64,000 nucleotides of DNA from Sphaerodactylus townsendi (taxonomy: Eukaryota): contig NC_059433.1 of assembly GCF_021028975.2 (NCBI RefSeq), forward strand, positions 67,208,001-67,272,000, in the 5' to 3' direction. The notes under the pieces were generated by a model. It worked only from the letters and a program-made list of their open reading frames with translations. It did no database searches and was not told the origin of the DNA. Below, piece by piece: positions 39,260-43,445 of this stretch. How positions within the stretch are numbered: the first letter of the stretch is position 1; the number at the start of each line of letters is the position of its first letter. Made by a program: the position numbers and the translations under genes.

Positions 39260-39349
39260 ATGACAAGCAAAGAGGAGGGGGTGTTAAAGGTTCCTGAGGA
39301 GATGTTCAAAGATGCCAAGTTCTGTGCAGTAAGAGACAAAGACTCCCAG
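39260..39349 (+). pseudogene. PAXIP1: PAXIP1 exon 1 duplicate, copy 4 (ATG, frame and donor intact)
   Basis: MTSKEEGVLKVPEEMFKDAKFCAVRDKDSQ|GTAACC, 30 codons, phase 0. Confidence 0.8.
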
Positions 39350-39865
39350 GTAACCTCCCTTGGCCTTACTAATCTTCCTCCTTCCCCTGGCCAAGTCACC
39401 CTCCGTTCTTCTACCTGCAGGACCTTCCAATTCCTTGTCATCACCTTCTTACTTCAATAATTGCCTATTGATAGTGGTGGCCACGATAGGCTTTGGGCAC
39501 ACAAGACCTTGATGGGACTTAGGACGCATGCTAAATATAGGAGGAGAAGAGTTTTGGAGTTGGTGACTATTAATGGTTTAGAATGCCTGATATGCCCCTC
39601 TTTCCCATCTCCCGGTCTTGTGCTCTGTTGAGGTGTTGCAAGCCCTGGAGCAGCCTGGAGTGGAATGGAGAGGAATAGGATAGAGCCCCACCACTTTGAA
39701 ACTGGGGGACATGTTATGCTCAGCCACGAGTACACCTGCCCCCCCTCCTTGATAGGTTTGGTCTTTCCCAAAGAGCCTGATTTGATTTCACACATTTGGA
39801 AAGGGAGATACAAATAATCAGGTAATGCAAATGTCTCCTATCTTCCAAGTAACTGTTTGAGCCAG

Positions 39866-40011
39866 CCGTGGTGGCGAACCTTTGGCACTCCAGATGTTAT
39901 GGACTATAATTCCCATCAGCCCCTGCCAGAATGGCCAATTGGCCATGCTGTCAGGGGCTGATGGGAATTGTAGTCCATAACATCTGGAGTGCCAAAGGTT
40001 CGCCACCACTG
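39866..40011. mobile_element. Palindromic hAT-type MITE
   Basis: The whole 146 bp forms a near-perfect hairpin with a cagtggtggcgaacc terminus. Confidence 0.75.
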
Positions 40012-40345
40012 GCCTAGAGGTTCTGCAGGACTAAATAAACCTTATGAATTCTCCAATTCTTAGCATTTTCTAGTCTCTTCCATTTCCTGACCCATCTGTA
40101 GCTTCATCATGTGACTCTAGAAGACTCTGATTAGCAGACTGAACAAACATGATCATCTTCCTATCTCTTCCTCTCGAGGATATGTTTATGAGAAATAATG
40201 CTTTCTCACTGTACATCTGAGTGAGTCAATAATTCTTTCCTTTTATCACTAGTTCTCTGTGGTTTGAAATGATCTTCTAATGCCATAAAAGAACAAAATG
40301 GGCCTCATCGTGTTTCCTCCCCAACTAGATCGTGATCTTTGATCT

Positions 40346-40778
40346 AGGTAGGGAACCTGCGGCTCGAGAGCCGCATGCGGCTCTTCTGCTCTTGCACTGT
40401 GGCTCCTCGAGCCGAGCCGCCAGCTCCATCCTTGCCTGGCCTGCAGGCAGCAGGGTGGGCGCACCAAATGCCCATGGTCAGCTGGGCCGCACCGCGGGCT
40501 TCCCCTCTCGCCCGCCTCGTTGGAGCGGGGCGGGTGCTTTCCCGGCGGCCGGTGAGGCCAAGCTGCCGGCTTCATCCTTGCCCGCCCTGCAGACAGCAGG
40601 GCGGGCGCATCCATGTGCTTCTCAGAATGAGCGGAGTAAAAGGTAAAAAAAACCCTATATATATATAGTGTTATCTTTATTTTAAATGTCAAAAATTATT
40701 TGCAGCTCCAAGTGTTTTCTTTTCCCATGGAAAATGGGTCCAAATGGCTCTTTGACCATTAAAGGTTCCCTACCCCTG
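40346..40778 (+). mobile_element. hAT (Charlie-like) MITE at a rearrangement junction
   Basis: ggtagggaacctgcggctc...aggttccctacccctg termini. Confidence 0.65.
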
Positions 40779-40824
40779 GCTTAGATAGAGGTTGAGTACT
40801 GTTCTGATTCATGCATGAAATAAA

Positions 40825-41114
40825 ATTGTAGATATTGGGGTCTTCATAGTCAGCATTTTGGAATATATATATATATATATATATATGGTATATGATTTTT
40901 TTTAATGGCAATCTCTCCTGGAGCTGTTTCTCCTCAGCAACATTACACATCTATTTATGTGTACTCATTGCTGTATAGCGCTGATCAGCTTCTCTTGACA
41001 GCCATCAGTGTGGACAGGTGCATGGCGGTCCTCTTCCCAGTTTGACATCGATTTCACCAGCAACCACACTTGTCCAGAACTGCATGTATCTTCACATGGG
41101 TTCTCTCCTTCCTG
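40825..41114 (+). pseudogene. Internal type B MRGPR fragment (TM2-TM4)
   Basis: DIGV..., YSADQLLLTAISVDRCMAVLFPV* (TGA at 41043), HLSRT...WVLSFL. Contains a (TA)n expansion. Confidence 0.85.
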
Positions 41115-41264
41115 CCAGGGACGTATCTGCAATGGGAACATGGGGAGTCCAATATCCCCGGGCGCTCCCTTGCACAGTGGACTACATTTATCACGTTTTA
41201 CCTTTAAGGGATGTATATCTGCATGCGGTGGTTGTGTCCTGTAGGGTCACAGTTTGTGGGAACT

Positions 41265-41860
41265 ATTTATTTTATTTTTTTTATTTTATTAAACTTATAG
41301 GCCGCCTATCCCCGAAGGGCTCAAGGCGGCTTCCAACATGGCTGTTACATAGACAGCAATCAACAACATAAAATACTAAAATCATTAAAACCTAAGAACT
41401 AAGCAGCAGTTTACTACAGAACTATAGGTTAAGCAACCCAGTTCATAAATTAATTAAGACAGGCGCCCCGCCGAAGGCCATTAAAAGAAGAAAAAGGGGA
41501 GGGAGTAAGTAGGGCCTGGGATGGAATTTATAAGTAAGACAGGCCCAGCTTTAATAGAATGGAACGGCAGTCTCAGTTTTGATTTCAATTCCAGTGTCGA
41601 TAGGGGGCAGTAGATCCACGGCCGGCCTCCCTGAAAGCCCGGTGGAAAAGCTCCGTCTTGCAGGCCCTGCGGAACTTATTAAGGTCCCGCAGGGCCCGCA
41701 CAGCCGGAGGTAAGGCATTCCACCAGGCAGGGGCCAGAGCCGTAAAGGCTCTGGCCCGGCTGGGAGGGCCAGCCGCAGACATTGCAGGACCAGGGGGTCA
41801 CCAGTAGATCTGCCGTTGCCGAGCGCAGCGACCTATGTGGGACATAAGGGGGCCTATGTG
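41265..41860 (-). mobile_element. L2-type LINE 3' fragment
   Basis: RSLRS...RARAFTALAPAWWNALP...FRRACKTELF followed by an (AATA)n tail. Confidence 0.8.
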
Positions 41861-42536
41861 GGACATATTTATAAAAACAGCAAATATTACGCCTTGGCTC
41901 AGTTAACAATATGGGGAGAACAAAACAGAAAAACGGCATCCAAGGGATTAATTGTGATTGCGTTGATTGCAGCCCACAGAGAACAGTAAAATGTTAGAAA
42001 ACCACAAAACATTACATTCTTGGTATTCACTGTGGCTAATAGCCTTGGCAAAAAAAAAAAAGGCACATCAACATAGACTAGTCAAAGGTAATACTGATTT
42101 GAAACTGGTAATAGGTTAAGGGCCATGTTATATGATTGCTGTCTGAATAACAGCCATGTTGTGAGCCGCCTCGAGCCCTTCGGGGGGTGAGGCGGCCTAG
42201 AAGTCAAATAATAAATCAATAAATAATAAAGTATGAGATTTCTGTGATACGCAGCATGATTTTATTTCATGCTTGAATCACAACAACATTCAACCTCTCT
42301 CTAAGCTCTTTCCCAGATTAGGAAAAGGAATTAGGTTCAAAATATATAAAGAATTATGTTTTTTTTAAAAAAGCAACACCAGACTGAAACCTTTAGCCAT
42401 GCATTTGAAAAACAAGAATTTAATCATGCAGTGTTCTTTCTCCTAACAGAGCTGTAAAGGCGAGGAGTCAAGACGAAAATCCCGAAAACGGAAACTGAGC
42501 ATCATAACGGATATTGGCCTGACGATCCTTTCCATT

Positions 42537-43445
42537 ATGGATACTGCCCTGGAATATAATAACTACCTTGATAACACTTCTTTCCCAAATGACAGCACTG
42601 AATATAATAATATCTTTGATGATGAAAGCGCGAATAATATAGAAGTTTTTAGTATCTTGCTGTTGGTCATCTGCTTTTTGGGAGCCATGGGGAATGGAAC
42701 TGTCATCTGGCTTCTTGGCTTCTGCATTAAGAGGAATCCTTTTATCATCTACATCTTGAACTTGGCTGTTGCTGATCTTGGGTTCCTTTTATCAACGACA
42801 TTTCGCATTGTTACTTTCCAGTTTCATGATGGTTTTTACTTTACTTACGAGTTCCTGTTCACATCAATGTACAGTGCGAGTCAATTTCTACTCACTGCAA
42901 TCAGCATTGACAGGTGTGTGGCCGTCTTCTTCCCACTTTGGTATAAAGGCCACCAGCCAAAATGGTTGTCCCGTTTTGTTTGTGCACTCCTATGGGTCCT
43001 CTCCTTCCTGCTAACTGCAGTTACCTGCACTCTCTTAATAGCTGGATATTTCGGGATTGAACTATATTTCCAATGTATTGTGAACGGGCTGCTTTGCCTT
43101 CCAATCATGACTGTTACCTCTGTGGCCCTGTTCATTAAACTCCGTTTTAAAGCACGGCAGCATCAGAGGAGGAAGCTTTTGACCGTGGTCTTGCTCACCC
43201 TGGTCTTCTTCCTTCTCTTTGCTTTTCCATTAAATACCATTTTCATCCTCAGCCATTTCATTTTCCATGAAGACAACTTGTTAAACAGTGCCGTGGTATT
43301 AGCCTGTCTAAATAGCAGTGTAAACCCAGCTATTTATACCCTGGTTGGGAGACAAAGGAAGTCTAGACATAAGGAGAGCATGAAGATGATCCTCCAGAAA
43401 GTTTTCAAGGAAGAAGAAGGCTGTACTGAAAGGAACCCCAGTTGA
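42537..43445 (+). CDS. MAS-related GPCR, type A, copy A4, 302 aa
   Basis: Full 7TM ORF with the same motifs. Acceptor tgttctttctcctaacAG at 42448-42449. Confidence 0.95.
   Translation: MDTALEYNNYLDNTSFPNDSTEYNNIFDDESANNIEVFSILLLVICFLGAMGNGTVIWLLGFCIKRNPFIIYILNLAVADLGFLLSTTFRIVTFQFHDGFYFTYEFLFTSMYSASQFLLTAISIDRCVAVFFPLWYKGHQPKWLSRFVCALLWVLSFLLTAVTCTLLIAGYFGIELYFQCIVNGLLCLPIMTVTSVALFIKLRFKARQHQRRKLLTVVLLTLVFFLLFAFPLNTIFILSHFIFHEDNLLNSAVVLACLNSSVNPAIYTLVGRQRKSRHKESMKMILQKVFKEEEGCTERNPS

What the first reader, a model, noticed from the sequence alone, without database searches (positions are those of the whole stretch)
39260..43445. Potential in-frame PAXIP1-MRGPR chimeric gene
Seen: copy 4 is the only PAXIP1 exon with ATG, frame and phase-0 donor all intact. 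A4 is the only type A gene whose 87-nt acceptor-to-ATG leader (42450-42536) is stop-free in phase 0; A1 and A2 have TAG, A3 has TAA. Splicing 39349>42450 gives MTSKEEGVLKVPEEMFKDAKFCAVRDKDSQ-SCKGEESRRKSRKRKLSIITDIGLTILSI-MDTALEY..., 361 aa. The added basic cluster plus hydrophobic stretch could act as a signal or anchor. Inference: that both intact parts fall in the same unit is suggestive but could be chance. In the other units the exon would act only as a uORF.
Basis: partly seen in the sequence, partly recalled or inferred. Interest (0 to 1): 0.72.

Follow-up and report, generated by a model that had tools for sequence, protein, structure and literature searches.

The report
Gecko transposon carrying PAXIP1 first exon
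The first exon of the PAXIP1 gene sits inside a jumping DNA element found at more than 150 places in this gecko genome, and one copy lies in frame in front of a Mas-related receptor gene, but that fusion is likely a coincidence rather than a working hybrid gene.

Summary
The reading frames are as described, and the same 361-aa product is already an NCBI predicted model (XP_048364523.1). The PAXIP1 exon is not a local duplicate. It is cargo of a ~1.5-kb non-autonomous transposon with 14-bp inverted ends and 8-bp target duplications (hAT-type), carrying about -187 to +869 of PAXIP1. 155 places match the exon core (control 0). One insertion in the MRGPR cluster was multiplied by segmental duplication. 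The fusion looks incidental: intact exons also occur in 3 of 40 dispersed copies; exon and open leader coincide 1 time in 3 by chance; copy 4 has 7 amino-acid-changing and 2 silent changes; its CpG island has decayed; the hydrophobic stretch is the receptor's own older N-terminus; a broken MRGPR fragment lies in the proposed intron. No RNA run was available, so splicing is untested (translated fusion about 0.2). The solid result is an old, high-copy Pack-TIR spreading a start codon plus splice donor through a vertebrate genome. The scan noted a similar HCN1-carrying element in another lizard genome.

The parts
39120..39855 (+). Readable part of copy 4 of the PAXIP1-carrying transposon; left end hidden behind N 39030-39119, right end lost
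   Evidence: 68-72% to full-length dispersed copies over 39121-39783; 92.7% to window copy 2 over 39121-39855
39260..39349 (+). Captured PAXIP1 exon 1 (30 codons, ATG intact), donor CAG|GTAACC at 39350
   Evidence: the gene's own exon 1 is at G000:C11:68744929
39868..40009 (.). Short palindromic high-copy repeat inserted after the transposon
   Evidence: self-inverted match; very high depth in DNA runs
40012..40347 (+). Block shared by the units that carry the transposon; role unknown
   Evidence: 79-85% to blocks at 4510-4816, 10308-10635, 26516-26855 and one beyond the window
40831..41115 (+). Broken fragment of a type B MRGPR gene inside the proposed intron
   Evidence: tblastn 67% to the type B receptor, 40923-41114; 79% DNA match to a type B gene beyond the window
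42450..42536 (+). 87-nt acceptor-to-ATG leader, open in phase 0; second half matches an N-terminal extension of other gecko receptors
42537..43445 (+). MRGPR type A4 ORF, 302 aa, 7tm_1
5852..6249 (-). Transposon copy 1, exon frameshifted, upstream of receptor A1 (ATG 1871)
10673..11431 (-). Transposon copy 2, ATG changed to ACG
26893..27663 (-). Transposon copy 3, exon frameshifted, upstream of receptor A2 (ATG 21984)

Best explanation
The PAXIP1 exon is cargo inside a dispersed repeat with inverted ends and 8-bp target duplications, likely an old non-autonomous hAT transposon, and its in-frame position before receptor A4 is likely chance, so A4 would normally start at its own ATG (42537). Steps: (1) shown: the element holds about 1.06 kb of the 5' end of PAXIP1 (upstream sequence, exon 1, start of intron 1) between 14-bp inverted ends; (2) inferred: an hAT transposase working in trans spread it in one old burst to hundreds of sites; (3) shown by tree, inferred as history: one copy landed upstream of an ancestral type A receptor gene and was multiplied with the cluster; (4) inferred: copies decayed without selection, copy 4 kept ATG, frame and donor by luck, and the A4 leader kept an open state; (5) inferred: a gene predictor joined the two because both are open.
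For: Dispersed repeat: 40 of 40 scored DNA matches among 545 candidates; 155 places match a 26-nt exon core with up to 2 mismatches, reversed-pattern control 0. Ends: 8 of 69 loci had both ends called, target-site matches 2,3,5,6,7,7,7,8 of 8, mean 5.6 against 2.7 for crossed pairs; 4 of 30 further loci gave 5,6,6,8 against 1.5 (one repeats a locus, one is a sister element). Source gene is single and elsewhere, colinear with the cargo from -187 to +869. Six cluster copies form one clade, 100/100, in an otherwise star-like tree of 40. Intact exon plus donor in 1 of 23 DNA-picked and 2 of 17 3'-picked dispersed copies, 4 of 10 protein-picked, 1 of 6 in the cluster; a neutral simulation gives 16-27% (indel rate assumed). 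Three units have a sense copy before a type A gene; one exon and one leader are open, so they coincide 1 time in 3. Copy 4 differs from the family majority by 7 amino-acid-changing and 2 silent changes, like other copies (325:147; P = 0.82), whereas the gene differs 0:7. CpG observed/expected 0.16 against 0.62 at the gene. Predicted proteins of other geckos put unrelated first segments on the same leader (P0011, P0018, P0026). Receptor A5 is intact with no element upstream.
Against: No RNA data, so absence of splicing is not shown. NCBI's model makes the same join and its support could not be seen; it is the only fused protein among 11 profile hits. Receptor paralogues themselves show pN/pS of 0.8-1.2, so free change in the exon does not exclude use. 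All cluster copies that still lie before a type A gene are in sense orientation and all six keep the GT donor, though they share one ancestor. The leader stays open in contigs of three DNA runs of organism A (two samples, one study). Tan et al. report that 30% or more of Pack-TIRs are transcribed as chimeras (PMC8277862, section 10). No transposase with these ends was found in 30 of 73 hAT-domain loci examined.
Confidence: 0.7

Rival explanations
1. The transposon exon has been exapted as the coding first exon of A4, giving a receptor with a 59-residue longer N-terminus (30 from PAXIP1, 29 from the leader) that changes membrane insertion, trafficking or ligand access.
For: Both parts open in one unit; identical NCBI model; real start context and donor inherited from an expressed gene; leader open in three DNA runs of organism A; chimeric Pack-TIR transcripts are common elsewhere.
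Against: Coincidence is 1 in 3; 7:2 change ratio; CpG island lost; only 140 nt upstream of the ATG are readable and the unit is rearranged; six other pyrimidine-rich AG sites and a broken receptor fragment lie in the proposed intron; hydrophobic peak 1.77 against 3.28 for TM1, starting at residue 46; 1 of the 120 listed homologues carries the PAXIP1 motif, namely this model.
Confidence: 0.18
2. The element supplies a promoter or non-coding 5' exon to the type A subfamily as a whole; transcripts splice from its donor, translation mostly restarts or leaks to the receptor ATG, and A4's open frame is a by-product.
For: Insertion predates the type A expansion and is in sense in A1, A2, A4 and a remnant before a pseudogene; GT kept in 6 of 6 cluster copies against 28 of 50 elsewhere; cargo includes 2-3 tandem copies of an upstream PAXIP1 segment; bat Helitrons with 5' gene ends reach the highest copy numbers (PMC4224331, section 13).
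Against: The six copies are not independent; A3 and A5 have intact ORFs without a sense copy upstream; CpG decay; the captured piece starts downstream of the GC-box-like motifs seen upstream of PAXIP1 (motif identity recalled).
Confidence: 0.1
3. The exon came by a local segmental duplication or retrocopy of PAXIP1, or the adjacency is an assembly artefact.
For: An N run at 39030-39119 lies where two non-colinear segments meet.
Against: Intron 1 sequence is included, so not a retrocopy; inverted ends and target duplications; 155 sites; the N run lies upstream of the exon, not between exon and receptor.
Confidence: 0.02

Closest known systems
Multicopy animal Pack-TIRs, e.g. Pack-hAT-N8_XT carrying the CAPSL 5' UTR in Xenopus tropicalis (Tan et al. 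2021, PMC8277862; passages, section 10 and a supplement search seen)
   Same: hAT-type ends, captured host 5' sequence with a high-GC source, copies on other chromosomes with distinct target duplications, possible chimeric transcripts with neighbours.
   Different: That study found 4 multicopy cases among 281, the example with three copies and a 291-bp cargo, and 0 cases in its lizard genome (anoCar2 row); it looked at young cases. This family has 155 or more copies, about 1 kb of cargo with a coding exon, start codon and donor, and is old.
Bat Helitrons carrying promoters, 5' UTRs and first exons (Thomas et al. 2014, PMC4224331; abstract and section 13 seen)
   Same: 5' end of a host gene amplified to high copy number in a vertebrate genome.
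   Different: Rolling-circle elements; this one has inverted ends and 8-bp target duplications.
NCBI model XP_048364523.1, Mas-related GPCR member H-like
   Same: Identical 361-aa sequence.
   Different: Named as an ordinary receptor; the PAXIP1 and transposon origin of its first 30 residues is not in the name; its evidence could not be seen.
Sauropsid MRGPR clusters (PMC6504862, passages seen)
   Same: Locally duplicated Mas-related receptor genes.
   Different: The passages seen say nothing on first exons or transposon-derived N-termini.

Membership tests
hAT superfamily (non-autonomous) | Short terminal inverted repeats | tested here: met
   14-bp inverted ends in full-length copies L016, L024, L052, L062, L071; 46 exact matches to the right end, control 0
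hAT superfamily (non-autonomous) | 8-bp target site duplication (feature recalled) | tested here: met
   5 of 8 loci with both ends called match at 6-8 of 8; mean 5.6 vs 2.7 control; 4 of 30 more, mean 6.25 vs 1.5
hAT superfamily (non-autonomous) | An hAT transposase gene with the same ends | tested here: inconclusive
   73 PF05699 matches; none of the 30 loci fetched (1.5 kb flanks) shows this end
Pack-TIR | Host gene sequence between the two ends, with a parental gene elsewhere | tested here: met
   Colinear with PAXIP1 at G000:C11 from -187 to +869
Pack-TIR | Multicopy class: several insertions with distinct target duplications | tested here: met
   Five different duplications on different contigs or sites; 155 exon-core matches
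MRGPR / Mas-related class A GPCR | 7tm_1 domain, nearest relatives Mas-related receptors, single coding exon | tested here: met
   7tm_1 E 4e-22; best hits named Mas-related; ORF uninterrupted
Chimeric gene by transposon exonisation | Spliced transcript joining the two parts | not testable with these tools
   No RNA holder listed
Chimeric gene by transposon exonisation | Purifying selection on the new exon | tested here: not met
   7 amino-acid-changing, 2 silent changes; weak test, 9 changes, and receptor paralogues also show pN/pS near 1
Chimeric gene by transposon exonisation | Both frames open in other individuals and species | tested here: inconclusive
   Leader open in X1-X3; organism B only partly readable; exon copy 4 not separable from paralogues

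The most novel reading that the evidence does not exclude
A cut-and-paste transposon scattered a ready-made first exon (start codon, 30 codons, splice donor) over hundreds of sites in a gecko genome, and at this locus one copy became the coding first exon of a G-protein-coupled receptor, making a PAXIP1-MRGPR hybrid protein; some tens of other intact copies may do the same for other genes.
Probability: 0.18. Interest if true: 0.75.

Novelty: new member of a known kind. Interest (0 to 1): 0.45.

Why it matters
It adds a high-copy, old, coding-exon-bearing Pack-TIR to a class that is rare in published vertebrate surveys, in a group where the survey seen found none. With hundreds of decayed copies of one donor exon, the family is a natural experiment on how often a mobile first exon gets adopted. 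It also warns that gene models in this genome can pick up PAXIP1-like first exons from repeats. If the fusion is translated, it would be a receptor N-terminus delivered by a DNA transposon from an unrelated nuclear protein.

Tried and rejected
RNA evidence: no RNA holder listed. PDB search with the 30-aa exon: 0 hits. HMMER over 1.84 billion representatives with the 30-aa exon: one unrelated hit, PAXIP1 itself missed, so uninformative. Pfam: exon alone matches 0 families. Lenient pairwise alignment to fix cargo limits over-extended into unrelated sequence; rejected in favour of BLAST limits. First copy-number script used a wrong slice, redone: 2 of 16 3'-picked exon copies match the core pattern, which scales 155 to roughly a thousand with very wide error; not used as a count. 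Depth over the exon about 85-130 times the unique bins in three DNA runs of organism A is no copy number. Alignment of the shared block found no native first exon, and the A6 row was the wrong stretch. Rows dropped: duplicates among loci; 12 of 29 3'-picked loci without an exon hit; L055 (spurious) and six poorly aligned copies before the change counts (43 kept). L007 and L049 end calls are doubtful but kept in the mean. Retrocopy and Helitron readings rejected (intron present; inverted ends). Literature: searches (20 of 75 listed; 20 of 39; 6 of 6; 3 of 3; 0) showed no listed paper on a PAXIP1-carrying element; PMC3597677 passages have no PAXIP1. Repeat libraries such as Dfam or Repbase could not be searched, so the family may already be deposited there.

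Full report
Observation. The window holds a squamate cluster of Mas-related receptor genes. Copies 1-3 of the exon are broken by a frameshift with stop, loss of ATG and a frameshift. The leaders of A1, A2, A3, of A5 and of a pseudogene beyond the window carry stops. The 361-aa product is identical to NCBI predicted model XP_048364523.1. That is a second prediction, not expression evidence; its support could not be seen.

What the exon is. It is PAXIP1 exon 1: a copy's peptide hits named squamate PAXIP1 proteins at 77-88% and the single true gene lies at G000:C11:68744929-68763638. But the exon is dispersed: 40 of 40 scored DNA matches among 545 candidates, 150 of 150 scored protein matches among 294 candidates, 43 of them at E below 0.001, and 155 places matching a 26-nt core, control 0 (this includes the gene and five cluster copies). 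Flank comparison gave an element of about 1.1-1.75 kb with 14-bp inverted ends. Of 69 loci, 8 had both ends called; target-site matches were 2, 3, 5, 6, 7, 7, 7 and 8 of 8, against a mean of 2.7 for crossed pairs. Of 30 loci picked only by the right end, 8 carried PAXIP1-derived DNA within 1.5 kb and 4 had both ends, with 5, 6, 6 and 8 of 8. Short inverted ends with 8-bp duplications are the hAT signature (recalled). No transposase with these ends was seen in 30 of 73 hAT-domain loci, so the mobilising partner is inferred. The cargo is colinear with PAXIP1 from about -187 to +869 of the ATG, including intron 1; an upstream 70-85-nt piece is repeated two to three times near the left end. The family majority of the exon encodes the same 30 residues as the gene, with 7 silent differences; copies differ from it by 12.5% on average (43 copies), and the tree is star-like: one old burst, not dated in years.

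History at this locus. The six cluster copies in 224 kb form one clade, 100/100 (bootstrap not fully converged), and copies 1-3 share their left flank, so one insertion was multiplied with the cluster. Copy 4's unit is rearranged: it faces A3 head to head across an N run at 39030-39119, leaving 140 nt readable upstream of the ATG, and a broken type B receptor fragment lies at 40831-41115 inside the proposed intron. A5 has an intact ORF and no element upstream.

Is the fusion more than chance? Intact ATG, frame and GT occur in 1 of 23 DNA-picked and 2 of 17 3'-picked dispersed copies, 4 of 10 protein-picked copies and 1 of 6 cluster copies; neutral simulation gives 16-27% under an assumed indel rate. 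Three units have a sense copy before a type A gene. With one open exon and one open leader the coincidence is 1 in 3. Copy 4 shows 7 amino-acid-changing and 2 silent changes, like the pooled copies (325:147, P = 0.82) and unlike the gene (0:7). Against this reading, the receptor paralogues also show pN/pS 0.8-1.2, so the test is weak. The CpG island has decayed (0.16 against 0.62). The donor is GTAACC in the family and GTAAGC in the gene. The leader's second half corresponds to an in-frame extension with its own Met in other gecko receptors, and predicted proteins of other geckos read the leader open with unrelated first segments, so the open state is probably old and predictors probably attach whatever exon fits (inference). 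The hydrophobic stretch starts at residue 46 and scores 1.77 against 3.28 for TM1; a cleavable signal normally lies nearer the start and basic clusters tend to hinder export of a receptor's N-tail (recalled), so the extension would more likely be neutral or harmful than an anchor. Among 120 of 590 listed homologues only this model has the PAXIP1 motif; a 13-copy profile found 11 proteins among 7,985 scored: six named PAXIP1, one hypothetical with the same domains, three unnamed, and this model. In DNA runs of one study the leader is open in X1, X2 and X3 (0-1 differences, Ser to Asn); for organism B only two of 23 differences were shown, neither a stop, and the place of one gap was not shown; exon copy 4 could not be told from its paralogues. 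No RNA run was listed.

Comparison. The element fits the multicopy Pack-TIR class of Tan et al. 2021 (PMC8277862; passages, section 10, supplement search), who found 4 multicopy cases among 281 young ones, none in their lizard genome, and report that 30% or more of Pack-TIRs give chimeric transcripts. In copy number and cargo it resembles bat Helitrons carrying 5' gene ends (PMC4224331; abstract, section 13). Paper searches listed nothing on a PAXIP1-carrying element, and the Tan supplements held as text have no PAXIP1; repeat databases were not searchable.

Verdict. Observation confirmed; interpretation partly supported. Shown: transposon-borne PAXIP1 exon 1 at 155 or more places, one ancestral insertion in the cluster, an open but unselected-looking copy before A4. 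Inferred: hAT mobilisation, neutral decay, predictor-made join. Incidental fusion 0.70, translated chimera 0.18, non-coding first exon for the subfamily 0.10. New member of a known kind; interest 0.45.

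Noticed in passing
L153 (G000:C3, right end at 60633297): A 1,265-bp sister element with the same ends and a perfect 8-bp target duplication but no PAXIP1 cargo; its interior matched none of the other 29 loci. Possibly another captured sequence.
   Followed up: partly
L138-L167: 22 of 30 loci with the exact right end show no PAXIP1 DNA within 1.5 kb, so the ends are shared by several sub-families or deleted forms.
   Followed up: partly
window 39030-39119: The N run lies exactly where A3's upstream region (96.9% to A2's unit) meets transposon copy 4 on the other strand; inversion breakpoint or scaffold join cannot be told apart.
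   Followed up: partly
about 130-230 nt upstream of the A2, A3 and A5 start codons (window near 22180 for A2): A possible 34-nt mini-exon with AG acceptor and GT donor in A2 and A5, donor changed in A3, region absent in A1 and A4.
   Followed up: no
window type A receptor ORFs (936-1871, 21058-21984, 37063-38001, 42537-43445): Pairwise pN/pS of 0.8-1.2 with intact frames: relaxed or diversifying evolution (simple counting).
   Followed up: partly
window 10302-20450 and 26518-36729: A recent 10.2-kb tandem duplication at 96.8% identity carrying a type B receptor and a transposon copy.
   Followed up: no
window 41255-41856: A contig of organism B joins 41254 to 41857, so this repeat insertion is probably younger than the split of the two species.
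   Followed up: no
window 16284-16430 and 32563-32709: Type B genes B1 and B2 match the first 49 residues of the 61655 frame in another frame, i.e. a frameshift just upstream of their ORFs.
   Followed up: no
window 44826-45623: Broken type A receptor remnant interrupted by a repeat, downstream of A4.
   Followed up: no
P0002 (unnamed Logan protein): Reads from PAXIP1 exon 1 into intron 1 and resembles the element's intron more than this genome's own gene does, which would fit an old capture or a better-kept copy in another gecko.
   Followed up: no
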